Shown here: in pieces, positions 3,092-24,037 of the stretch
Numbering within the stretch: the stretch's first letter is position 1
How the letters are laid out: each line of letters begins with the position of its first letter
Source: a virus
UHGV virus genome: UHGV-0103738
Strand: one strand, 5' to 3'
DNA: 24,037 bases
The notes under the pieces: generated by a model
The model's database searches: none
Seen by the model: only the letters and a program-made list of their open reading frames with translations
What the model was told of the DNA's origin: nothing
Position numbers and translations under genes: made by a program

Positions 3092-3217
3092 ACTCCTGTA
3101 GAACCATCTGAACCTTCCCCCGATTTGGGGGAAGAAAATCTGATTCCTGAACCGGAAGAAGAATCCCAGACGGTTAAGGCGAAAGCCACAGCTAAAAAAC
3201 AGCGTAAAACTAAAGAA
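3092..3217 (+). other. Putative in-frame TGA read-through extension of the capsid protein (42 codons, TAA at 3218-3220)
   Basis: The frame stays open for 42 codons after the TGA, encoding TPVEPSEPSPDLGEENLIPEPEEESQTVKAKATAKKQRKTKE. It ends 5 nt before a terminator hairpin. A parallel arrangement follows the tail tube gene. Confidence 0.45.
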
Positions 3218-3225
3218 TAATAATT

Positions 3226-3252
3226 AGCCCTGCCTAACGGTGGGGCTTTTTT
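3226..3252 (+). terminator. Rho-independent terminator after the capsid gene
   Basis: Stem AGCCCTGCC / GGTGGGGCT (9 bp, two G-U pairs), loop TAAC, followed by a T-run. Near-identical to the hairpin at 9094-9121. Confidence 0.75.
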
Positions 3253-3988: not shown

Positions 3989-4822
3989 ATGAATATTACA
4001 CAAGATAACTTAGATATTTTCACGGGGTCACATGTTGAAGTGTCGATCTCTAACCAGATAGACAATCAGGTCGACTTTTTCGATCCTAGCTTTAGTTCCA
4101 TCGAGAACGTTGCAGCATTTCCTACGCTAACCGAATCCACAGAGATAGAAACTCTGGAAGAGTACGATCAGGACGCTACGGGGAAACTTGCTGGTTATCG
4201 TAGACTGGAACCGACAACACTCACGTTAAACCGTGTTCTGGATGACGAACATCAAGCAATGTTGATGAAAGCGGTAGAGGATAAAACACCTTTACGCTTC
4301 CGTATGTTCTATGTTGTGAACTCTGGCTATAGTGCTGCTAACACTGGTTACTATGTCATCTATGATGCTTACGTCACATCACACAAAACCCGTGGTAGTG
4401 ATAACAAAGCTGTAACACTGGAATTTAAACTTGAACCAGATGGCGGGATTTTGGATCGCGGTATTGCAACGGAGGGTCGTCTTCTCCGTCGCGGGGATTA
4501 TGGCGTAGGTGCAGGTGTACATCCATTCACAGGTCCGATTGATAGTGATGCTTTAGCCGGAAACCGTTTCGTAACTTACAAGGGAACTGCTAGCGGTAAT
4601 CCATATTCAGCCGACACATCATTAATTCACCTTCAAGCTAATGAGCATGGCGCATGGCAATTAACCTGTAATACTTCTGGCGCACCACGTTTACGCGTCC
4701 GAAATATTCAGGAAAACGGTCGCTCTGAATGGATCAAGGTATATTCCACCAATGAGAAACCGACACCTAGCGAAATTGGCGCAGTGGCTAAGACTGACCG
4801 GATCGATTTCGGCGAATACTAA
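3989..4822 (+). CDS. Tail-tube-like paralogue with a C-terminal domain carrying a tail-fibre motif (277 aa)
   Basis: SD AAGGGGTAA. N-terminal ~150 aa align by eye with the 157-aa tail tube protein (DIFTG..., AAFPTLTESTEIETLEEY vs AGFPETGIERGTVEVKSF, LRFRMFYVV vs IQIKVEYYV). The C-terminus has KVYSTNEKPTPSEIGAVAKTD, matching KMYHEGDKPTPGEIGAYTKAE in the fibre gene. Confidence 0.6.
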   Translation: MNITQDNLDIFTGSHVEVSISNQIDNQVDFFDPSFSSIENVAAFPTLTESTEIETLEEYDQDATGKLAGYRRLEPTTLTLNRVLDDEHQAMLMKAVEDKTPLRFRMFYVVNSGYSAANTGYYVIYDAYVTSHKTRGSDNKAVTLEFKLEPDGGILDRGIATEGRLLRRGDYGVGAGVHPFTGPIDSDALAGNRFVTYKGTASGNPYSADTSLIHLQANEHGAWQLTCNTSGAPRLRVRNIQENGRSEWIKVYSTNEKPTPSEIGAVAKTDRIDFGEY

Positions 4823-4901: not shown

Positions 4902-7900
4902 ATGCAGTCGATCCAATTTAAACGCACACAAACGGCTGGTAAAAAACCAACGCCGGAACAATTATCACAGGGCGAGATCGCCTTACAACTGGCGGACCAT
5001 GTGATTTACACCAAAGATAAAAATAATAACGTAGTCCAAATTAGTGTTTCTCCAGAAAAACACGCTGAACTGAATACGAAAGTAGACACCAACAAGGTCA
5101 ACACAGATAAAGTCATTTCAGCAAATAAAACCGAAGCCGCTAATAATCTGGCTACGGCTAAAGCTGAACTTAATCAGACTATCACTTCTACCCGTGATAC
5201 TCTCAATGCTTCAATCACTGCTGGCGATACCGCAGCCAACAAGCGAATTGATGCTTTGACTACCACAGTAGGTAACAATAAAACCGAAGCGGCTAACGCT
5301 CTGGCGGCTGCTAAGACTGAACTGAATCAGACTATTACTTCAACCCGCGATACTATCAACGCGACAATTAACAAGAACAAGACAGATATTAATGCGCGAG
5401 TTGATCAGACGAATACCAACGTTACCAACTTAACGAATACTGTCGCAGCAAATAAATCAGCAATAGAAAAGACGGTAGCGGATAATAAGAAAGATGCGGA
5501 CACGAAGATCACCAATCTTACTAGTACGGTCTCTGCGAATAAGACAGCCATTGAAAGAACTGTTGCAAATAACAAGGCCAGTGCCGATGCCGCAATTGCC
5601 GCAGCTAACCAGCGAATTGATTCTATTGAAGGTAGTGCCGATGCTGCTTACATCAAGAAGAATACCAATACTAAGCATGGTGGGTATCTGTTAAGCAAGA
5701 CAGCTAACTATTTGGAAGACCAGACAGCGAGAGATCTTAACTACTTTGGTGCTTTCCGTACCAATGGTCAAGATGGACTCATGGATCTAACTCTTAATGT
5801 TCCTCATTCTGCCGGTAAAGCGCACGGTCGCGGATTTACTTTCCGTTATGCGTCTGGTGGATCTCGTGTTGAAACCTATGGTTTTGATAGAGAAGGACAG
5901 AAGAACTTTAGCTATAAGATGTATCACGAAGGTGATAAGCCGACTCCTGGCGAGATTGGCGCATACACCAAAGCCGAAGTTGATAAGATGTTTGTTAAAA
6001 ACGTCGTTATGTCTGTTCCCAATTCTAGCGAAAACGTATCTGCATATTTCAAATTGGCAACCGCAACAATTCCACAAAACGGGCGTAGTGTGTTTTTCCG
6101 TATTCATGGTGGTAATGGTTACAACGTTACGGCATATGATCAGGTTGACGTAGTAGAAATTCTTCTGCGTAGTGGTAACGATAGACCTAAAGGTCTTAAC
6201 GTAATTGCATACCGTAGAAATACAAACAAAGATTTTGAGGTATTTGCTGTCAATACTTCCGGTGATAACTATGATATCTACGTGAAATATCAGCGTTATA
6301 CCGATAACGTTATTGTCGAATATGGGAAATCTGTTTATGTAAGTTTGACGGTTTATGATACGCCGGAAGCCACGTTAATTAAACCTTCCGTTGGTGTTAT
6401 CGGTGGTCGCAACGTAACTCTTTTTAATACTGAAAATAAACGTGGTGTGTTAAGTTTTGATGATAACACACAAAACAGCTATGACATTGTTCACTTGAGT
6501 AACGATAAAGGTACTGGACGGAAATATATTCGTAAATTCCGTAGCAACTATAACGAAATGGTTTGGCATGAAACCGTTCAGGGTGCTGTATATCGTCTTG
6601 CTACCGGTGCTACAGATTCTACAGAAGTTATTAGAATTGATTCTAATAGTGCAATACCGGGTAATTATAAAGGATATGTAATTACTGGTAAAATGGAATT
6701 GCACGGTAGTGGTAATGCGATGACTTTACATCGCCAGACTGGTCAAGCTGCATATATGGCGTGGTGGGATCGTCGTGATGGTAAAAACCAACGTAGTGGT
6801 TATATCGGTCATGCGGATGGTACTAGTGATGGTTTTGTGTGGCGTAATGATGTTGGTGCTAACTCATTTGATTTGGAAGGTAGTGGACAAGTAAATTTGA
6901 CTACAGGAAAAACAAAAATTGTATATACCAATGGTCAATATTATTCCGCTAACGCTGATGCATTCCGTATGATTTACGGTAAGTATGGTGCATTCTGGCG
7001 AAATGATGGTGGTAAAGTTTATCTGTTGTCTACTGCCGAAAATGATAGATTTGGTGGTTGGAACGGAAACCGACCATTCATTTACGATTTGACTAACGGT
7101 AAAGTTACTTTAGGTGGTGATGGTAACGAAGGCGCATTAGTTCTCGAAAGAGATAGCCGTGCTGCTCGATTTGCTGGCGATACATATATCGAGAAAGGGT
7201 TTTTAACCTTCTCTGCTGGGAGAAGCGGATCTCGTGATTATATTCGATTTAATCATTGGGGTGATAGTAATAATGCCCGTGATAACGTTTTGTACCTAGA
7301 AGATAGTCAAGGTAGACATTTTAGCACAGAGCGTGCGATGGGTACTGGTGCTCTTAAAGCAAACTTCTTAGGCGATCTTGAAGTTGGTGGTAAGTTTACT
7401 TGGGGTAAAAATACAGCTACATCCAGCTTTAATATTCGTGCTTGGGGTAACGATAGTCGTAAACAAGTATTAGAATGTGGTGATGAAAGTGGTTGGCATT
7501 GGTATACCCAACGTCCGGGCGGTCCGGGTACTACGGCAATTGAGTTTGCCATCAACGGTACTGTTAAGCCTCAAGCAATTCACACTGGCGGTAATATCAC
7601 GCTTAACGGTGCTGATATTGAATTTCGTCGCACTGGTAATAAGCATATCTGGTTTAGAGATCCAACTGGATTAGAACTAGGTTTGATGTATTCTGATGAT
7701 GCTGGTGTTATTCGCTTCCGTGGTCAGAAACAAGCCCAGACGTGGAAACTTGCGGATAAGATGATTCATCTTGAATCTGGTAGCGTCGGCGGATCTGATA
7801 AAGGTTTGATTCGTGGTAACGTTTCTGGTGGTAGCTGGTCTAGTTGGCGCGATCGTGCATCCGGCTTGCAAGTTGATTGCCCTCAATCAACCGATTCCGC

Positions 7901-8432
7901 TCATAACATCTGGAAAGCTACTCATTGGGGTAAATATCACATTGCAGCAATGGGTGTACACGTTCCTAGCGGTACTATCGGTAACGCTCTTGTTCGTCTG
8001 CATGTTAACGATACTAACTTTGACTTTAACGCTGCTGGTGACTTTACCGCAGGTCGTAACGGTAGCTTTAACGATGTTTACATTCGCTCTGACTCCCGTT
8101 TGAAGATTAACAAGGAAGAATTACAGGACGGTGCATTAGAGAAAGTAAACTCACTGAAAGTCTACACCTACGATAAAGTTAAATCTCTTTCCGATGACAC
8201 GGTGATTAAACGCGAAGTAGGTATTATTGCTCAGGATCTGGAAAAAGTATTGCCGGAAGCAGTAGGTATTCAATCCACCGAAGATCCAGAAAATCCAGAA
8301 GCAATCAAGACTATTTCTAACTCTGCTGTCAATGCTTTAATCATCAAGGCTATGCAGGAAATGGACGCCAAATATAAAGCACAGATCGAAGCATTACAGA
8401 AAGAAATTGCCGAACTGAAAGCAACTAAATAA
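4902..8432 (+). CDS. Side (L-shaped type) tail fibre with a C-terminal intramolecular chaperone / self-cleaving domain (1176 aa)
   Basis: SD GAGGTGA. N-terminal fibre-type motifs, a repeat-rich N/T/A shaft with 51-aa repeats, and a long Gly-rich beta region. The C-terminal ~114 aa begin RSDSRLKINKEE and end in a coiled coil, as in peptidase S74-type chaperone domains of phage fibres and endosialidases (Ser/Lys spacing S1063/K1068). Confidence 0.8.
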   Translation: MQSIQFKRTQTAGKKPTPEQLSQGEIALQLADHVIYTKDKNNNVVQISVSPEKHAELNTKVDTNKVNTDKVISANKTEAANNLATAKAELNQTITSTRDTLNASITAGDTAANKRIDALTTTVGNNKTEAANALAAAKTELNQTITSTRDTINATINKNKTDINARVDQTNTNVTNLTNTVAANKSAIEKTVADNKKDADTKITNLTSTVSANKTAIERTVANNKASADAAIAAANQRIDSIEGSADAAYIKKNTNTKHGGYLLSKTANYLEDQTARDLNYFGAFRTNGQDGLMDLTLNVPHSAGKAHGRGFTFRYASGGSRVETYGFDREGQKNFSYKMYHEGDKPTPGEIGAYTKAEVDKMFVKNVVMSVPNSSENVSAYFKLATATIPQNGRSVFFRIHGGNGYNVTAYDQVDVVEILLRSGNDRPKGLNVIAYRRNTNKDFEVFAVNTSGDNYDIYVKYQRYTDNVIVEYGKSVYVSLTVYDTPEATLIKPSVGVIGGRNVTLFNTENKRGVLSFDDNTQNSYDIVHLSNDKGTGRKYIRKFRSNYNEMVWHETVQGAVYRLATGATDSTEVIRIDSNSAIPGNYKGYVITGKMELHGSGNAMTLHRQTGQAAYMAWWDRRDGKNQRSGYIGHADGTSDGFVWRNDVGANSFDLEGSGQVNLTTGKTKIVYTNGQYYSANADAFRMIYGKYGAFWRNDGGKVYLLSTAENDRFGGWNGNRPFIYDLTNGKVTLGGDGNEGALVLERDSRAARFAGDTYIEKGFLTFSAGRSGSRDYIRFNHWGDSNNARDNVLYLEDSQGRHFSTERAMGTGALKANFLGDLEVGGKFTWGKNTATSSFNIRAWGNDSRKQVLECGDESGWHWYTQRPGGPGTTAIEFAINGTVKPQAIHTGGNITLNGADIEFRRTGNKHIWFRDPTGLELGLMYSDDAGVIRFRGQKQAQTWKLADKMIHLESGSVGGSDKGLIRGNVSGGSWSSWRDRASGLQVDCPQSTDSAHNIWKATHWGKYHIAAMGVHVPSGTIGNALVRLHVNDTNFDFNAAGDFTAGRNGSFNDVYIRSDSRLKINKEELQDGALEKVNSLKVYTYDKVKSLSDDTVIKREVGIIAQDLEKVLPEAVGIQSTEDPENPEAIKTISNSAVNALIIKAMQEMDAKYKAQIEALQKEIAELKATK
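5124..5429 (+). repeat. Two tandem 153-nt (51-codon) repeat units inside the fibre shaft
   Basis: AATAAAACCGAAGC(C/G)GCTAA...CTGAA(C/T)T(T/G)AATCAGACTAT(C/T)ACTTC recurs at 5124 and 5277. Protein units are NKTEAANNLATAKAELNQTITSTRDT... and NKTEAANALAAAKTELNQTITSTRDT... Confidence 0.7.
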
Positions 8433-8488: not shown

Positions 8489-8962
8489 ATGTCTCAGCAA
8501 TTCAAAGATATTTTTACTGGTGGTCTGGTAAGTCTGTTCTATCACGCCGATACCACTAACACCGACCTTGCCGATGAAGCATACGAAGAAATTAAAGAGT
8601 GTGCTGGTTTTCCTGAAACTGGTATCGAGCGCGGTACTGTAGAAGTTAAATCCTTCTCTTCTCAGTATAACCGTAAACTGGTAGGTAAACTGAACGTTCC
8701 TGATCTGACTCTGACCGTTAACTACATTCCTGGTGATGCGGTACATGAGAAGCTCATAAAGGCTGCCGAAGACGGTACGCGTATTCAAATCAAAGTTGAA
8801 TACTATGTTGACGCCGGAAAACAGACTGGTATTCGCACTGCTTTCAACGGCTTTATTTCTAAAGTTGCTATGAACGGTGGCGATGAAGAAGTGGTAACGA
8901 AAGAGTTTACCTTTGCTGTTGATGGTGCTCCGCTGAAACAGCAAATCTTCACTGCCGGATGA
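8489..8962 (+). CDS. Major tail tube protein (157 aa)
   Basis: SD AAGGGGTAA. Strongly biased highly-expressed codon usage. Lies upstream of the chaperone and tape-measure genes and is followed by a strong terminator. Stop is TGA at 8960-8962. Confidence 0.7.
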   Translation: MSQQFKDIFTGGLVSLFYHADTTNTDLADEAYEEIKECAGFPETGIERGTVEVKSFSSQYNRKLVGKLNVPDLTLTVNYIPGDAVHEKLIKAAEDGTRIQIKVEYYVDAGKQTGIRTAFNGFISKVAMNGGDEEVVTKEFTFAVDGAPLKQQIFTAG

Positions 8963-9085
8963 ACTAACGAAGAACTTCCTTTACCAGAACCGGAACCACT
9001 GCCGGAACATGAAGCGGTGGTGATTCCAGAAGTAGAAGAAGTTACGGCGAAAGCCACAGCAAAACGAGGCCGCAAGGCTAAGAAT
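8963..9085 (+). other. Putative in-frame TGA read-through extension of the tail tube protein (41 codons, TAA at 9086-9088)
   Basis: Open in frame after the TGA, encoding TNEELPLPEPEPLPEHEAVVIPEVEEVTAKATAKRGRKAKN. Same TGA-ACT context and same Pro/Glu-linker plus basic-tail architecture as the capsid extension. Ends 5 nt before the terminator. Confidence 0.45.
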
Positions 9086-9093
9086 TAATTTTA

Positions 9094-9121
9094 AGCCCTG
9101 CCTTAATGGTGGGGCTTTTTT
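9094..9121 (+). terminator. Rho-independent terminator after the tail tube gene
   Basis: Stem AGCCCTGCC / GGTGGGGCT, loop TTAAT, then a T-run. Same stem as the terminator at 3226-3252. Confidence 0.75.
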
Positions 9122-9136
9122 ATTGGAGTAATCAAA

Positions 9137-9643
9137 ATGGCAAATGTCGTTAAAGTTCCTGGCTGGATCGGGTCATCTGCTGTATCGGTGACGGGTAAGC
9201 GATGGATGAAAGAAGCATTAACAGCTTTAAAAGTTCCGGCTCCGCGTAATATGTCGGCAATGGCTGGTCGTGGTATGGATACGGTTGTAGCTACTGCATC
9301 GTGGTCTACTTCATTGGGTAATAACTGGGGTGTAACTGCTTCAAACTATCCTGTTTCCGGTATGCAAAGCAAAGGATCTATGGAGAACCCCGAAAACGTG
9401 GGCGTAGGGCGTCTGGTTGGCGTTATCGTTGGTCAATTCAATGGCGGTACTCCTACTATGGCTGTATATCTCCAGAACGGTAGAGCGGGGAATATAACCG
9501 TTAATTTGGGTGGTGCTGCTGTCACTGTTCCTTATAACAGTATGCAAAGTGGTTTTCATTACTATTGGTTAAGCAATCCTCCGGCTGCTTTCCTTACCAA
9601 CATTAAGAAGACTGGCACTAAGCAGACTTTGAAAATCTCTTAA
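9137..9643 (+). CDS. Hypothetical tail-associated protein (168 aa, Gly/Ser/Thr/Asn-rich)
   Basis: ORF with upstream GGAG, located between the tube gene and the chaperone genes. Composition suggests a beta-rich structural protein. No specific motif recognised. Confidence 0.45.
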   Translation: MANVVKVPGWIGSSAVSVTGKRWMKEALTALKVPAPRNMSAMAGRGMDTVVATASWSTSLGNNWGVTASNYPVSGMQSKGSMENPENVGVGRLVGVIVGQFNGGTPTMAVYLQNGRAGNITVNLGGAAVTVPYNSMQSGFHYYWLSNPPAAFLTNIKKTGTKQTLKIS

Positions 9644-19968: not shown

Positions 19969-20322
19969 ATGTTAAGCAAACATTTTTCTCGCAAGGAATT
20001 TAAATGTAAATGTGGAAAATGTGATTATGATACAATCGACGCTGAATTACTGGTAATTCTTGAGGATGTACGAGAGCACTTCGGGAAGCCAGTAATTATT
20101 AACAGTGGGAACCGTTGTCCGACTCATAATAAGAATGTTGGCGGCGCAACCAATAGCTATCATGTTCGAGGCCGTGCGGCTGACATTGTTATCAAGGGTG
20201 TCTCGCCTGATATTGTTCATGCTTATCTTGATGGGAAATATCCTACTCAATACGGCTTAGGAAAATATAAAACCTTTACGCATATTGATTCCAGATCAAA
20301 AAAATCACGGTGGAATGGATAA
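19969..20322 (+). CDS. Peptidase M15-family zinc peptidase, probable endolysin (117 aa)
   Basis: SD AAGGGGGTAA. Motifs SYHVRGRAADI and FTHID match the His/Asp zinc-binding signature of M15-type cell-wall peptidases. No signal peptide. Confidence 0.65.
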   Translation: MLSKHFSRKEFKCKCGKCDYDTIDAELLVILEDVREHFGKPVIINSGNRCPTHNKNVGGATNSYHVRGRAADIVIKGVSPDIVHAYLDGKYPTQYGLGKYKTFTHIDSRSKKSRWNG

Positions 20323-20328
20323 AACAAA

Positions 20329-20352
20329 AGCGCCTCTGGTGGGCGCTTTTTT
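20329..20352 (+). terminator. Rho-independent terminator ending the + strand late operon
   Basis: Stem AGCGCC / GGCGCT, loop TCTGGTG, followed by TTTTTT, starting 7 nt after the lysin stop. Confidence 0.7.
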
Positions 20353-20536
20353 GTTAGAATATGCTGGCGACGTTAGCTATATTTCTGACCATTTTTTCAT
20401 TATAGACAAATATACCGCAGACGATAAAGTCGTTTTTGACGAAGTAGATCCGTCTCTGGTTGAAGTAATGAAAGAACCGGAAGACCTAGAGCTTGATTTA
20501 AGCCAATTATAGACTCTCTAACGCAATTAAATTAAA

Positions 20537-20558
20537 AAGGGGTACAAATGTACCCCTT
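20537..20558 (-). terminator. Terminator for the convergent – strand unit
   Basis: Perfect 9-bp palindrome AAGGGGTAC / GTACCCCTT with a 4-nt loop. On the – strand it is followed by a T-rich tract (TTTAATTT) and lies 37 nt downstream of the stop at 20595. Confidence 0.6.
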
Positions 20559-20594
20559 AAAGCGTTTGGTTCGTTATACGGCGATTTAGGCCGC

Positions 20595-20852
20595 CTATGA
20601 TTTATTTTCTTGTTCTATGAAAATCTTTCTCACCTCATCAGAATAAATGTCTAGTGATTCCTCATAACATTTTCTGTATTCATCGTAATTACTGGTGGTC
20701 TTTTGACATAGCAATTTCAATGTCTTATGTGCTCCATCAATGAAAGCATCTTCTCTATAGGTTAGCGGTCTACGCATTTCTTGGTCTACGGTTGCCAATG
20801 CCAAGCAAGAATTCATAGATAAAATTAAACCTAAAATCTTAATCATCTTCAT
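20595..20852 (-). CDS. Small secreted protein (85 aa; start at ATG 20852, track gives a TTG start at 20867)
   Basis: N-terminal signal-peptide-like sequence MKMIKILGLILSMNSCLALA followed by a hydrophilic domain with two Cys. The start region overlaps the 3' end of the recombinase gene. Confidence 0.5.
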   Translation of the reverse strand: MKMIKILGLILSMNSCLALATVDQEMRRPLTYREDAFIDGAHKTLKLLCQKTTSNYDEYRKCYEESLDIYSDEVRKIFIEQENKS

Positions 20853-20856
20853 TAGC

Positions 20857-22536
20857 TTAAATTCCAAATTCTTGTAATGGACCTGGTATTTCTTCTTCTG
20901 GTTTCCAGTTCTTATCTGTCAGCATGTCTAAACATGGATGCAGAACAAGCCCGTTACTCTCCAGAATCTGCCTATCATTGATAGTCTTCAAATCAACGAA
21001 GATCCGGCCTTTCCTCGGTCCTCTTGAATTTTCTATTACAACTCTCTGGGTCTTGCCATCGATGTATTCCAGTACAAACAAGTTTTTGTACTTGTCAATC
21101 CTGCTACACCCGATCCGTTTTAGAGCTTGCTTAATCTTAAACCGGACCTTAATGCGATCCTCGTTGTAAACATCTTCTAAATCAAATTCTGCGAGCTTCT
21201 CCCAGCCTTGAGAGTCAACAGAATACATTTCCTCTTCTGCCATCTTAAGTTGATTGTAGAGTGTTTCACGCTCGCTATTGAGGGTAGTAATCTGATCGGC
21301 TAGCTCCTTCGTTGCTCCTGTCATAGCAGAAAGGGTAATCAGGTTATCAATCTTGCGTGATATTTCATCAATCTGTACTTTCAAAGCCGGAACCGGATTA
21401 GCCTTATCTTCAGCAATCCAGATTTTATCAGCCAGCAATTGCAATACAGCTTTCTCTAATTGGTCGCCGCGAAAACTCCAGTTTGTATGCACACATTCAA
21501 TACGACTAGAGCGCATTGCATCGCATGAATAACGATATTGGTTAGGCCGTCTGTTTGTTCCTTTCACCTTAACCATAGCGGAACCGCAATGTTCACATTT
21601 CAATAGACCAACACCACTAAGCAAGGGAATAGGTTTAGCTTCTTCTTTGTCTCCAAAGTTACATGCTCTAACACCAATGCTTTTCTTAAGGTGATAAAAC
21701 TCAGCGTCATCTAGCACACGAGGATAATAATCCTTTAACTCATACTTAACGCCATCTACAGAGATTTCCTTGATACCAATCAAAGCGCGGGTATGGAACA
21801 ACCTTTCAATCATTGCCCGTGACCAGTTTGAATGCCTCTTGTGACTTGCGGCTGGTGGTGGTGTGTATGTCGCGTTAAGGTGATCCAGTATCTCGGCGGT
21901 TGACCGTCCATTCCTGCGTAATTCCACAACTTCCTGAACAATAGGGAAGAAGACCGGATGAGGAAGCACATAACCAGATGTGGTATCAGTCCACCACATA
22001 TTCTTTCCAATTTCCTCGATTGCAACAGCCGGATTTTGTGGATTTTCTTGATGAGCTTTAATCTTAATCAGTGCGCTTGAGTTAGTACGATTGCGCTTAG
22101 TCTGGCTTTCCTCATTACCACGGATGAATAAAAGGATGGAGAACATCAGGTCCATCGGGTTAGCGGTAACAGTATCAAGCGAGTAGATCTTGTTATCCAT
22201 GCCAGTAACAATGGTTATCCCCCTACGGATGATTGAAAGGAATAACTCCTGTGCACTGACAATATCGGCACGGGATAAACGGTCCAAGTTTTCGATGAAT
22301 AGCCAGCTACCAACAGGAACGGATCTACCTATTGCATCAAGGAAACGAGATAGCGCCCCTGTTTTGGAGTTAGCACCCTTAAACGCAGATACACCCAGAT
22401 CCTGATAATCATTTACCAGTTCAAGGTCATACTTTACCGCAATCTCTCTAGCCATCCTGATTTGTCGTTCATAACTCGAACCATCATTCTGACGCATAGA
22501 CGAGAAGCGAATATACGAATACAGTTTAGTTTTCAT
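20857..22536 (-). CDS. Large serine recombinase (integrase/resolvase family, ~559 aa from ATG 22536)
   Basis: N-terminal catalytic motif YIRFSSMRQ (Arg/Ser/Gln spacing of serine recombinases) and ENLDRLSR. Central recombinase region. Cys cluster CEHCGSAMV...YRYSCDAM...ECVH (zinc-ribbon-like), then a coiled coil. Track start is a TTG at 22551; the first ATG is at 22536. Confidence 0.85.
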   Translation of the reverse strand: MKTKLYSYIRFSSMRQNDGSSYERQIRMAREIAVKYDLELVNDYQDLGVSAFKGANSKTGALSRFLDAIGRSVPVGSWLFIENLDRLSRADIVSAQELFLSIIRRGITIVTGMDNKIYSLDTVTANPMDLMFSILLFIRGNEESQTKRNRTNSSALIKIKAHQENPQNPAVAIEEIGKNMWWTDTTSGYVLPHPVFFPIVQEVVELRRNGRSTAEILDHLNATYTPPPAASHKRHSNWSRAMIERLFHTRALIGIKEISVDGVKYELKDYYPRVLDDAEFYHLKKSIGVRACNFGDKEEAKPIPLLSGVGLLKCEHCGSAMVKVKGTNRRPNQYRYSCDAMRSSRIECVHTNWSFRGDQLEKAVLQLLADKIWIAEDKANPVPALKVQIDEISRKIDNLITLSAMTGATKELADQITTLNSERETLYNQLKMAEEEMYSVDSQGWEKLAEFDLEDVYNEDRIKVRFKIKQALKRIGCSRIDKYKNLFVLEYIDGKTQRVVIENSRGPRKGRIFVDLKTINDRQILESNGLVLHPCLDMLTDKNWKPEEEIPGPLQEFGI

Positions 22537-22545
22537 ACCATTTCC

Positions 22546-22585
22546 AAACAAAAACGCCCCTACCGCGTATTATAACGATAGGGGC
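22546..22585 (-). terminator. Hairpin with T-run immediately upstream of the recombinase start (– strand)
   Basis: 10-bp stem whose one imperfect position is a G-U pair only in the – strand transcript, followed on the – strand by GTTTTTGTTT. The loop contains TTATAAT. Confidence 0.5.
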
Positions 22586-22599
22586 TAGGTGATTAAAGA

Positions 22600-23019
22600 T
22601 TAAAGAATTTCACGGCAGCTAATCAGGGAATAAGACGTATCACCTTTTTTAACATCAAATATAGGCGCGCCATCTACAGAATGCAGATATTTGATGTAGG
22701 ATTTACCATCTTCGGAACCATAATATTCTTCTTTCTCGTTCTTATCTTCTTTCAGTTTTGGGCTTTTGATTGTTTTATCAAATACCGGATCGTTGAAAGC
22801 AAATTGACTATTATCATCATTCACTCGAACCTTTACACCGATAAAACCACGGTATTTGCCAGACGGCGCATGATAATAACGGTCGCCATCACTCAGGTAG
22901 CGTGTATCATCTCCTTTATATTCGAAGTAGGAATTGCACACATAATAGGTATAGGTATTAGCATTCGCAGCACCAACCAAACCCAGAGCAAGAACAACAC
23001 CAGCGATAATCTTTTTCAT
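22600..23019 (-). CDS. Secreted (periplasmic) Tyr-rich protein (139 aa)
   Basis: SD AAGAGGAAA. Classic Sec signal peptide MKKIIAGVVLALGLVGAANA. Two Cys in the mature part. Confidence 0.6.
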   Translation of the reverse strand: MKKIIAGVVLALGLVGAANANTYTYYVCNSYFEYKGDDTRYLSDGDRYYHAPSGKYRGFIGVKVRVNDDNSQFAFNDPVFDKTIKSPKLKEDKNEKEEYYGSEDGKSYIKYLHSVDGAPIFDVKKGDTSYSLISCREIL

Positions 23020-23327: not shown

Positions 23328-23765
23328 TTAAGCGCGAACGATGGTCAGAGTATCCAGCAAACCTTTTTCGTATAATTCGAAACACGTTTTATATTGCTCA
23401 ATCTTCCAACCGTAGCGGGTGATCTTATTCAGTAGAATAATCACGGTATTCTCATCTAGGTATTGTCCTTGCTTACCAATTACATATGACTCGCGGGATA
23501 GTCTCAGCTTACGGAAACCTTTAACACCTAATTCCTTAGCCACCGCTTTAATCTCGTTAATCTCACCTTCTGCGGCTACATATTCAGCGTCGATAATCTC
23601 AGTTGATGATCTCAGTGCTACCAGAACTAAGGCCATTGCTTCTTCTTCGGTACGAGCAACACCAGCTTTCTCGAAAGTCATCTCACCAAATTTACGAGTC
23701 ATAATATTGAACATTGTCTGTATTCCGTTTAAATCGGCGGGAATAGTACCCGCCAAATTAGACAT
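23328..23765 (-). CDS. Hypothetical protein (145 aa)
   Basis: ORF whose ATG overlaps the upstream stop (TAATG at 23763-23767). No recognised motif. Confidence 0.55.
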   Translation of the reverse strand: MSNLAGTIPADLNGIQTMFNIMTRKFGEMTFEKAGVARTEEEAMALVLVALRSSTEIIDAEYVAAEGEINEIKAVAKELGVKGFRKLRLSRESYVIGKQGQYLDENTVIILLNKITRYGWKIEQYKTCFELYEKGLLDTLTIVRA

Positions 23766-24037
23766 TACTTCTTGCTGATAAACTCTTTAGCGATAAAGTT
23801 GATTACTTCTTTCAGCTTCTTGTCTGTATCGATGCACGCTGGTAATTCTTCTTTAATATCCTGCGGCAGATACACATTGCCTTTAAAGTGGAGGAAACCA
23901 TCATTACCAATCATGTAGGAGAACATCCATTCACAATCGTTATCCGCTTCCCAGAACGCCACGGTCTCATCCCCAATCAAGGTAATGTCCATGTTGCGAC
24001 GCGCTGCGTAGTTGATGATTGCTTTACCGATGTTCAT
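23765..24037 (-). CDS. Hypothetical protein (90 aa as seen; ATG falls exactly at the window edge, so it may extend upstream)
   Basis: ORF ending in a TAATG overlap with the next gene. No recognised motif. Confidence 0.45.
   Translation of the reverse strand: MNIGKAIINYAARRNMDITLIGDETVAFWEADNDCEWMFSYMIGNDGFLHFKGNVYLPQDIKEELPACIDTDKKLKEVINFIAKEFISKK

What the first reader, a model, noticed from the sequence alone, without database searches (positions are those of the whole stretch)
20857..22536. Large serine recombinase on the opposite strand of an otherwise lytic-looking late region
This is a full-length large serine recombinase (catalytic domain, recombinase domain, zinc-ribbon-like Cys cluster, coiled coil), with a terminator directly upstream and a secreted-protein gene overlapping its 3' end. 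It may be an integrase (temperate lifestyle), or a resolvase or invertase acting on the phage genome. Its placement beside the lysis and tail genes is notable either way.
Basis: partly seen in the sequence, partly recalled or inferred. Interest (0 to 1): 0.6.

Follow-up and report, generated by a model that had tools for sequence, protein, structure and literature searches.

The report
Serine integrase of a hicB-inserting prophage
The gene is a genuine large serine recombinase, and it is the ordinary integrase of a ~36 kb E. coli prophage that inserts into the antitoxin gene hicB, so its position next to the lysis genes simply marks the end of the prophage.

Summary
Confirmed: window 20857-22536 (-) encodes a 559-aa large serine recombinase (LSR). 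It has the resolvase catalytic domain, recombinase domain, four-Cys zinc ribbon and a coiled-coil hairpin; the catalytic Arg10/Ser12/Asp85/Arg86/Arg89 are present.

The window is the late half of a ~36 kb siphovirus-like provirus, cut at a gene boundary about 44 bp short of its right attachment junction. In complete E. coli chromosomes the same element splits hicB. AttL-left plus attR-right rebuild the intact hicB found in 5281 of 5426 genomes. The crossover is bounded to the dinucleotide AA (Lys102 codon, inside the HicB helix-turn-helix). The rebuilt attP has 18/26 dyad symmetry about that AA.

The LSR is the only recombinase in the element and lies 1.5 kb from the junction. Relatives (59-86% identical) sit at the same place in related prophages that split ycdX or codB. 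In the near-identical allele pairs, the target gene follows the DNA-binding domains rather than the catalytic domain.

No inverted repeats or inversions support an invertase or resolvase role. This layout (late genes, lysis, integrase, att) is the usual temperate-phage layout, not an anomaly. It is a new member of a known kind; interest is low to moderate.

The parts
20857..22536 (-). Large serine recombinase (integrase) gene, 559 aa. By residue: catalytic domain 1-125 (nt 22162-22536); long alpha-E helix 126-165; recombinase domain 166-295 (nt 21652-22041); zinc ribbon 296-380 (nt 21397-21651); coiled-coil hairpin 381-440 (nt 21217-21396); return of the zinc-ribbon domain 441-480; clade-specific beta-rich C-terminal extension 481-559.
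   Evidence: Pfam and PHROG matches; alignment invariants R10, S12, D85, R86, R89 and four Cys; profile match to A118 integrase, 1e-13; AlphaFold2 model and Foldseek matches to PhiC31/Bxb1/A118 integrases.
22546..22585 (-). Terminator-like hairpin (GCCCCTA..TAGGGGC) with a T-tract, ending 9 nt before the integrase ATG. Its loop contains TATAAT.
   Evidence: Consensus scan and sequence. A role in keeping integrase expression low, or a promoter in the loop, is inference only.
20595..20867 (-). Small ORF just downstream of the integrase: 90 aa from TTG, or 85 aa from the ATG at 20852. It has a signal-peptide-like N-terminus. It is a strain-specific passenger in the variable slot between the integrase and the lysis genes.
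   Evidence: No family match. Present only in 99%-type loci. Not annotated in RefSeq.
20537..20558 (-). Terminator-like hairpin that closes the integrase/small-ORF transcription unit, between it and the converging lysis genes.
22600..23019 (-). Gene for a 139-aa secreted protein upstream of the integrase. Its signal peptide is conserved across prophage variants, but the mature part is replaced in many of them.
23328..24037 (-). Two small conserved genes (145 aa, phrog_14908; 90 aa, phrog_6147) between the integrase and the attachment junction. The window ends exactly at the ATG of the last one. The attR crossover (AA) lies about 43-44 nt beyond the window end (L001 24081-24082).
   Evidence: Homologues occur in the Salmonella and E. 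fergusonii relatives. Any role in excision is untested.
19969..20322 (+). Peptidase_M15 endolysin, the last clearly assigned late gene, converging on the integrase unit.
   Evidence: Pfam 1.1e-27; phrog_894.

Best explanation
The gene encodes the site-specific integrase of a temperate, cos-type, siphovirus-like phage of about 36 kb.

**Proposed mechanism**
- After infection the circularised genome carries a ~50-bp attP about 1.5 kb upstream of the integrase gene. The rebuilt sequence is TTATTGTGGGTACATGATATTTGGC-AA-CCCGAATGTAGTCAACCCAAAATAA.
- Integrase dimers bind attP and the attB inside the chromosomal hicB gene (..GCGAATTGGC-AA-ACCTAAACAGG..) and synapse through their coiled coils.
- Ser12 cuts all four strands at the central AA. 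Half of the complex rotates 180 degrees and the strands are rejoined.
- The product is a prophage flanked by attL and attR.

**Consequences**
- Insertion replaces HicB residues 102-138 (most of its helix-turn-helix) with eight phage-encoded residues. hicA and the HicA-binding N-terminal domain of HicB stay intact.
- Excision should need a phage-encoded directionality factor that has not been identified.

**Shown here:** protein family and catalytic residues; integrated state; exact junctions; intact empty site; symmetry of attP; co-variation of target gene with the DNA-binding domains in near-identical allele pairs.

**Inferred:** the chemistry; the requirement for a directionality factor; the effect on hicAB regulation.
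For: **Protein family**
- All LSR domains and catalytic residues are present.

**Integrated state and junctions**
- In E. coli NZ_CP024232.1 the element (~35.8 kb) lies between a hicB fragment lacking its C-terminus and one lacking its N-terminus.
- AttL-left plus attR-right equals intact hicB. This is found uninterrupted in 5281 of 5426 genomes, at up to 100% identity.
- At least 35 complete genomes of unrelated backgrounds carry the phage/hicB attR junction. These include all 18 close matches to the window. None is on a plasmid.

**Crossover and attP**
- The phage arm next to the crossover varies among lysogens: TTGGCAA, TAGGCAA, TAGGGAA, TAGTGAA. The attL arms diverge from hicB immediately after AA in the 99% type, and only after TTGGCAAACCTAAA in the 93% type. 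Together these bound the exchange to AA.
- The rebuilt attP has 18/26 dyad matches about that AA. The window background is 6.6 +/- 2.3, and 4e-5 of positions reach 18.

**Only recombinase**
- No other recombinase is found in the element.

**Relatives**
- They occupy the same position in related prophages that split ycdX (Salmonella, Edwardsiella, one E. coli type) or codB (E. fergusonii). Their phage arms are homologous, TT-[GC]CC[AT]AA[TC]AT.
- Two hicB-type enzymes are 99/96% identical in the recombinase and zinc-ribbon domains but 81% in the catalytic domain. Two ycdX-type enzymes show the same pattern.
Against: - No circular or virion form carrying attP was found. An exact 38-nt attP pattern gave no match in IMG/VR, and the IMG/VR copies are proviruses trimmed at gene boundaries.
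- Activity, inducibility and excision are untested.
- No repressor, replication gene or directionality factor could be recognised in the element, so some copies may be defective.
- The tight AA bound combines attL and attR from different lysogens. It assumes that all variants share one crossover point.
- The integrase is 1.5 kb from attP with three genes between them, rather than directly adjacent.
- The 93%-type attP has weaker symmetry, 13/26.
Confidence: 0.9

Rival explanations
1. The protein is a DNA invertase or resolvase acting inside the phage genome, for example switching tail-fibre genes or resolving concatemers or dimers, rather than an integrase.
For: - There is a weak secondary PHROG match to 'DNA invertase' (phrog_125, 6e-11), and JGI names for distant relatives say 'DNA invertase Pin-like'. 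These reflect the shared catalytic domain.
- Variable tail-fibre genes are present in the window.
- YbcK-like large serine recombinases (~30% identical) sit in lambdoid coliphage records, about 40 kb into ~49-kb genomes. Lambdoid phages normally integrate with a tyrosine integrase (own knowledge, not checked here), so their role is unknown.
Against: - The longest inverted repeats in the window are 18-33 nt at 72-89% complementarity, scattered at chance level. None brackets a gene segment.
- All full-length matches in 18 genomes are colinear single pieces.
- The protein has recombinase, zinc-ribbon and coiled-coil domains instead of the short C-terminal helix-turn-helix of Hin/Gin/Tn3-type enzymes.
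- The element is integrated by a conservative, site-specific event and has no other enzyme to do it.
Confidence: 0.03
2. The gene is a relic: it once integrated the phage, but the copy and the prophage are now defective and fixed, so the recombinase has no current function.
For: - No recognisable repressor or replication genes.
- Insertion sequences and an mcr-1 transposon sit inside some copies.
- Some genomes carry a disrupted recombinase gene (H49, H56).
- No cultured phage relative is known.
Against: - The window's copy is full length with all catalytic and zinc-binding residues.
- Hundreds of near-identical full-length copies exist in E. coli, Shigella and Salmonella.
- Different phage variants, with different attP arms and different cargo, occupy the same site in unrelated strains. 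This implies repeated recent integrations.
- The structural and lysis modules are complete.
Confidence: 0.07

Closest known systems
Phage large serine integrases (PhiC31 Int, Bxb1 gp35, A118/LI Int, TP901-1 Int)
   Same: - Same domain order: catalytic domain, alpha-E helix, recombinase domain, zinc ribbon with embedded coiled coil.
- Same catalytic residues.
- Short att sites with imperfect dyad symmetry about a non-palindromic central dinucleotide.
- Conservative insertion without target duplication.
   Different: - Only 12-16% identical in structural alignments.
- The host is a gamma-proteobacterium.
- It has a clade-specific ~80-residue beta-rich C-terminal extension.
- Three genes separate it from attP.
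- No directionality factor has been identified.
Closest phage-encoded sequences in GenBank phages: Burkholderia phages Bcep176 gp53, JC1 and Bcep22 serine recombinases; YbcK-like recombinases of lambdoid coliphages (for example Perceval, 4A7)
   Same: About 30% identity over 80-85% of the length, with the same three Pfam domains.
   Different: - Too distant to share att specificity.
- The YbcK-like genes sit about 40 kb into ~49-kb records rather than at a record end, and their role is unknown. The gene here lies near a prophage end and is the only recombinase of its element.
Serine-integrase prophages and elements that split host genes and restore them on excision (SPbeta SprA in spsM; Listeria phi10403S in comK; XisF-type elements in Anabaena)
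   Same: - Intragenic attB.
- The conservative reaction means that excision would rebuild hicB exactly.
- Best NCBIfam match is XisF, far below its cut-off (3e-13, 49.5 bits against a cut-off of 375).
- SprA paper: PMC5499854.
   Different: - No evidence here for regulated, non-lytic excision.
- The split gene is an antitoxin whose toxin-neutralising half is retained.

Membership tests
Large serine recombinase / serine integrase | N-terminal resolvase-type catalytic domain with the Ser nucleophile and the conserved Arg/Asp residues | tested here: met
   PF00239 at 2.1e-14, 54 bits against a cut-off of 23. R10, D85, R86 and R89 are invariant and S12 is conserved in at least 90% of 24 homologues.
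Large serine recombinase / serine integrase | Recombinase domain followed by a zinc-ribbon domain with four Cys | tested here: met
   PF07508 at 1.5e-7 and PF13408 at 7e-10. C314, C317, C338 and C348 are invariant. Profile match to the A118 integrase C-terminal domains, 1e-13.
Large serine recombinase / serine integrase | Coiled-coil motif inserted in the zinc-ribbon domain | tested here: met
   The AlphaFold2 model has helices 382-406 and 410-438 forming a hairpin. This region aligns with the A118 coiled coil.
Large serine recombinase / serine integrase | Short attP and attB with imperfect dyad symmetry about a 2-bp crossover; conservative recombination giving hybrid attL and attR | tested here: met
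   AttL, attR and intact attB were compared. The crossover is bounded to AA. AttP symmetry is 18/26, reached by 4e-5 of window positions.
Large serine recombinase / serine integrase | One specific chromosomal target rather than many | tested here: met
   All 18 close matches, and at least 35 junctions in all, are in hicB.
Large serine recombinase / serine integrase | Catalyses attP x attB on its own; attL x attR only with a recombination directionality factor | not testable with these tools
   Needs a recombination assay. No candidate directionality factor could be recognised by sequence.
Small serine invertases and resolvases (Hin/Gin/Cin/Pin, Tn3/gamma-delta) | About 190 aa, C-terminal helix-turn-helix, acting on inverted or direct sites flanking a segment inside the element | tested here: not met
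   The protein is 559 aa with recombinase and zinc-ribbon domains. No flanking inverted repeats. No inversion among 18 genomes.
Phage regulatory switch (active lysogeny) | Prophage splits a functional host gene, and precise excision restores it | tested here: inconclusive
   The split of hicB and the exact reconstruction of the gene from the junctions are shown. Actual excision has not been observed.
Phage regulatory switch (active lysogeny) | Regulated excision without phage production under a defined host condition | not testable with these tools
   Needs culture experiments or read-level data from lysogens.

The most novel reading that the evidence does not exclude
**First reading: a reversible switch on the HicAB toxin-antitoxin system.**
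- Insertion removes the DNA-binding helix-turn-helix of HicB but keeps hicA and the HicA-neutralising domain. This would deregulate hicAB in lysogens.
- Serine-integrase excision would restore the wild-type locus. The phage could use this for its own maintenance or for exclusion of other phages.

**Second reading: a natural retargeting series.**
- The family includes enzymes 82% identical in their DNA-binding domains that choose hicB or ycdX, with catalytic-domain alleles shuffled independently.
- Such a series could expose the residues that set serine-integrase site choice.
Probability: 0.12. Interest if true: 0.55.

Novelty: new member of a known kind. Interest (0 to 1): 0.3.

Why it matters
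- **Scan artefact.** The apparent oddity came from provirus trimming. The att junction lies just outside the window, so an integrase at the end of the late region looked misplaced.
- **Uncommon integrase type.** To my knowledge serine integrases are uncommon among coliphages, and this one now has a defined attP/attB pair. I found no paper describing it. That is a modest gain for the catalogue of integrases usable as genome-engineering tools.
- **Related enzymes with different targets.** Close relatives have different intragenic targets (hicB, ycdX, codB) and shuffled catalytic versus DNA-binding modules. This gives a small natural data set on how site specificity changes.
- **Antitoxin gene.** Insertion into an antitoxin gene raises a testable question about hicAB regulation in lysogens.

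Tried and rejected
- **attP in IMG/VR.** An exact 38-nt attP search gave no match. The 27 IMG/VR loci with this integrase are proviruses trimmed at gene starts, or carry hicB flanks, so they give no evidence of a circular form.
- **Nucleotide search of phage GenBank records.** The integrase region gave only a 42-bp match. The late region gave only the tail-fibre module, shared with RB49-like phages. The major capsid protein is at most 43% identical to any cultured phage.
- **Single-sequence search of solved structures.** It found only a catalytic-domain fragment. A family profile was needed to reach A118 and PhiC31.
- **Literature.** Searches for hicB or ycdX prophage integration and for this protein in the Durrant et al. 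2022 supplements found nothing. The held supplement text may be incomplete, so I cannot exclude that the enzyme is in that catalogue.
- **Rfam.** No matches on the window or on the early region.
- **Neighbouring small proteins.** Pfam, PHROGs and NCBIfam gave no functional names and no directionality-factor candidate.
- **Invertase and resolvase readings.** Rejected for lack of repeats and inversions.
- **Phage-plasmid lifestyle.** Rejected: 0 of 75 places are on plasmids.

Full report
**1. The observation**

The ORF at 20857-22536 on the minus strand is real and encodes 559 aa.
- It matches all three Pfam families that define large serine recombinases, each above the curated threshold: Resolvase 2.1e-14, Recombinase 1.5e-7, Zn_ribbon_recom 7e-10.
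- It matches the PHROG 'integrase' family phrog_95 at 7.4e-58.
- In an alignment with 23 homologues down to 27% identity, Arg10, Asp85, Arg86, Arg89 and four cysteines (314, 317, 338, 348) are invariant. Ser12, in the Y-x-R-x-S motif that holds the nucleophile in this family, is conserved in at least 90%.
- A profile of that alignment finds the C-terminal domains of the Listeria A118 integrase (1e-13) and PhiC31 integrase.
- An AlphaFold2 model (mean pLDDT 80.6) shows the following order:
  - catalytic domain;
  - long alpha-E helix (127-164);
  - recombinase domain;
  - zinc-ribbon domain with an inserted helical hairpin (382-406 and 410-438);
  - a beta-rich C-terminal extension.
- The model's best matches among solved structures are full-length PhiC31, Bxb1 and A118-type integrases (E down to 3e-16).

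The upstream terminator-like hairpin is present (22585-22556, T-tract ending 9 nt before the ATG).

The downstream 'secreted-protein gene' is weaker.
- It overlaps the recombinase gene only from a TTG start. From its ATG it begins 4 nt after the recombinase stop.
- It has no family match and is not annotated in RefSeq copies.
- It exists only in the closest prophage variants.

**2. What the window is**

The plus strand carries these late genes:
- portal;
- a capsid protein with an N-terminal extension;
- tail tube proteins;
- a T4 gp37-like fibre and a gp38-like adhesin;
- tail chaperone;
- tape measure;
- distal tail and tip proteins;
- a Peptidase_M15 endolysin.

No cultured phage is close.
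- The integrase region gives only a 42-bp nucleotide match to GenBank phages.
- The capsid protein is at most 43% identical to any cultured phage.

Proteins 97-100% identical to the recombinase are common in E. coli and Shigella assemblies. Versions 59-86% identical occur in other E. coli, Salmonella, E. fergusonii and Edwardsiella.

**3. It is integrated, and where**

Window 20000-24037 matches 60 of 5426 complete E. coli genomes, always on the chromosome. In 18 of them it matches end to end as a single colinear piece.

In NZ_CP024232.1 the element spans about 35.8 kb. It lies between a hicB fragment 'missing C-terminus' next to hicA and a hicB fragment 'missing N-terminus' next to ydcR.

The junctions are as follows.
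- attL: ..GCGAATTGGCAA|CCCGAATGTAGTCAACCC..
- attR: ..GGGTACATGATATTTGGCAA|ACCTAAACAGG..

Joining the host halves gives a sequence found uninterrupted in 5281 of 5426 genomes, where it is annotated as hicB. The match reaches 100% identity.

A probe across attR shows the phage/hicB junction in at least 35 genomes.
- 22 have the same terminal gene and at least 13 have a variant one.
- They include every close match to the window.
- Hosts are human, pig, cattle and chicken isolates, including O6:H16 and O55:H7.
- In empty sites, homology begins exactly at TTGGCAA.

The window ends at the ATG of the last phage gene, 43-44 nt short of the crossover. IMG/VR copies of this element start at that same ATG.

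**4. The crossover and attP**

The phage-derived arm of attR differs among lysogens right up to the third base before the junction: TTGGCAA, TAGGCAA, TAGGGAA, TAGTGAA.

In the 99% type, attL departs from hicB immediately after ..GGCAA. A 93% variant shares a longer core, TTGGCAAACCTAAA.

If all variants share one crossover point, the exchange is confined to the dinucleotide AA. This is the first two bases of the Lys102 codon of HicB.

The rebuilt attP has 18 of 26 positions in dyad symmetry about that AA. The background across the window is 6.6 +/- 2.3, only 4e-5 of positions reach 18, and shifting the centre abolishes the signal. This is the anatomy expected of a serine-integrase attP. The two-base staggered cut and subunit rotation are established knowledge for the family, not shown here.

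**5. Is it the integrase of this element?**

Nothing else in the element is a recombinase.
- The part outside the window encodes a lambda-gpA-type large terminase, a head-tail joining protein, a Rha/Ant-like regulator, a small-terminase-like protein, an LprI-like protein and unknowns.
- Every sizeable ORF in the window is structural, lytic or of unknown function, and none matches a recombinase family.

Related prophages give independent support.

| Recombinase | Identity to window | Host | Gene split |
|---|---|---|---|
| P0064, P0070, P0055 | 69-75% | Salmonella | ycdX |
| P0077 | 59% | Edwardsiella | ycdX |
| P0049 | 86% | E. coli | ycdX |
| P0067 | 72% | E. fergusonii | codB |

- In the Salmonella (L004) and Edwardsiella loci tested, the split falls at the same codon of ycdX, position 133/134 of the PRK09248 model. 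The E. coli P0049 junction lies at the corresponding place in the gene.
- In each case the recombinase reads inward, 0.2-2.1 kb from the junction.
- In each case the phage arm next to the junction is homologous: TT followed by [GC]CC[AT]AA[TC]AT.

Domain-by-domain identities show a mosaic.
- Two hicB-targeting enzymes are 99% and 96% identical in the recombinase and zinc-ribbon domains but only 81% in the catalytic domain.
- Two ycdX-targeting Salmonella enzymes show the same pattern: 98% and 99% against 81%.
- In these pairs the target gene follows the DNA-binding domains, as expected for a serine integrase.
- The rule is not absolute. P0049 is 82% and 81% identical to the window enzyme in those domains yet uses ycdX. 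Its ycdX site and the hicB site share 11 of 16 bases in the arm next to the TT/AA.

**6. Rivals**

- *Invertase or resolvase.* No inverted repeat longer than 33 nt or better than 89% complementary exists, and none brackets a gene. No inversion is seen among genomes. The domain architecture does not fit a small invertase or resolvase.
- *Fixed relic.* This cannot be excluded for individual copies. Some carry IS elements, an mcr-1 transposon or a broken recombinase gene, and I could not recognise a repressor, a replication gene or a directionality factor. However, the window's copy is intact. Different phage variants occupy the same site in unrelated strains, which argues for recent activity.
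- *Missing evidence.* No circular attP form was found.

**7. Consequence for the host (inference)**

Pfam places the HicA-binding HicB_lk_antitox domain at residues 3-67 and an HTH_3 domain at 88-134 of the 138-aa HicB. Insertion leaves residues 1-101 and adds NPNVVNPK. hicA is annotated intact in all three lysogens examined.

The likely result is loss of HicB DNA binding with toxin neutralisation retained. Excision would restore the gene exactly. Whether the phage exploits this is unknown.

**8. Comparison and verdict**

By every testable defining feature this is a member of the large serine integrase family. The closest phage-encoded sequences in GenBank are only about 30% identical: Burkholderia Bcep176, JC1 and Bcep22 recombinases, and YbcK-like proteins of lambdoid coliphages.

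I found no paper describing a hicB-targeting serine integrase or this prophage lineage. I cannot rule out that it is listed in large computational catalogues.

The finding is a correct gene call with an ordinary explanation: a new member of a known kind. The placement next to the lysis genes is the standard end-of-prophage position. Interest is low to moderate.

Noticed in passing
window 4902-8432 (especially 5685-8363) and 9137-9643: The 1176-aa tail-fibre gene is 77-82% identical at the nucleotide level to the gp37 distal long-tail-fibre genes of RB49-like T-even phages. A gp38-like adhesin gene (phrog_1121) follows about 700 bp downstream. So a temperate siphovirus-like prophage shares a receptor-binding module with virulent myoviruses. 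Other copies of the prophage carry different genes in this slot.
   Followed up: partly
window 3173-3252 and 9041-9120; 3989-4822 and 8489-8962: An 80-nt direct repeat (71% identical) that includes a terminator-like hairpin, plus two major-tail-protein-like genes, bracket the fibre module. This suggests the module was inserted or duplicated as a cassette.
   Followed up: no
window 20323-20856, and the matching slot in L003-L006, L009, L039, L041, L042: The gap between the endolysin and the integrase is a variable cargo slot. In the window it holds only small ORFs. In the Salmonella, E. fergusonii and P0049-type E. coli relatives it holds a UvsW-like helicase. Several of those also carry a UvsY-like gene (Salmonella and P0049 types) or a protein with faint CapR-family hits. 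Other E. coli copies carry GIY-YIG or beta/alpha-barrel proteins.
   Followed up: partly
window 22600-23019 (-): The secreted 139-aa protein upstream of the integrase keeps its 23-residue signal peptide across nearly all variants. The mature part is replaced in many of them.
   Followed up: partly
window 22546-22585 (-): The terminator-like hairpin just before the integrase start codon has a perfect TATAAT in its loop, with only a weak -35 (my reading of the sequence). It could both stop read-through and supply a weak promoter. This is untested.
   Followed up: no
L039 5817-10470 (E. coli PE15, NZ_CP041628.1): A copy of the same hicB prophage type carries an ISApl1 - mcr-1.1 - PAP2 - ISApl1 composite transposon in its early region. 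That is a colistin-resistance gene inside a potentially mobile prophage.
   Followed up: no
L002 8768-10030 (outside the window, early region of the same prophage): A 1.2-kb stretch without annotated genes is conserved as a gap in three genomes. It holds at least six copies of an AGTGTAGG(T/G)TT repeat (9338-9464) and several palindromes, so it may be an origin or operator array. It has no Rfam match. The element has no recognisable repressor or replication gene.
   Followed up: partly
window 20857-22536, compared with P0016, P0049, P0064, P0067, P0070: The integrase family is mosaic. Two catalytic-domain alleles (about 81% identical) are shuffled against several alleles of the DNA-binding domains. 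An enzyme 82% identical to the window's in the DNA-binding domains targets ycdX instead of hicB. The two attB sites share 11/16 bases in one arm.
   Followed up: yes
window 24037 (end): The window, like the IMG/VR copies of this element, ends exactly at the start codon of the terminal phage gene. Provirus trimming at gene boundaries removed the att junction, which lies only about 44 bp further on.
   Followed up: yes
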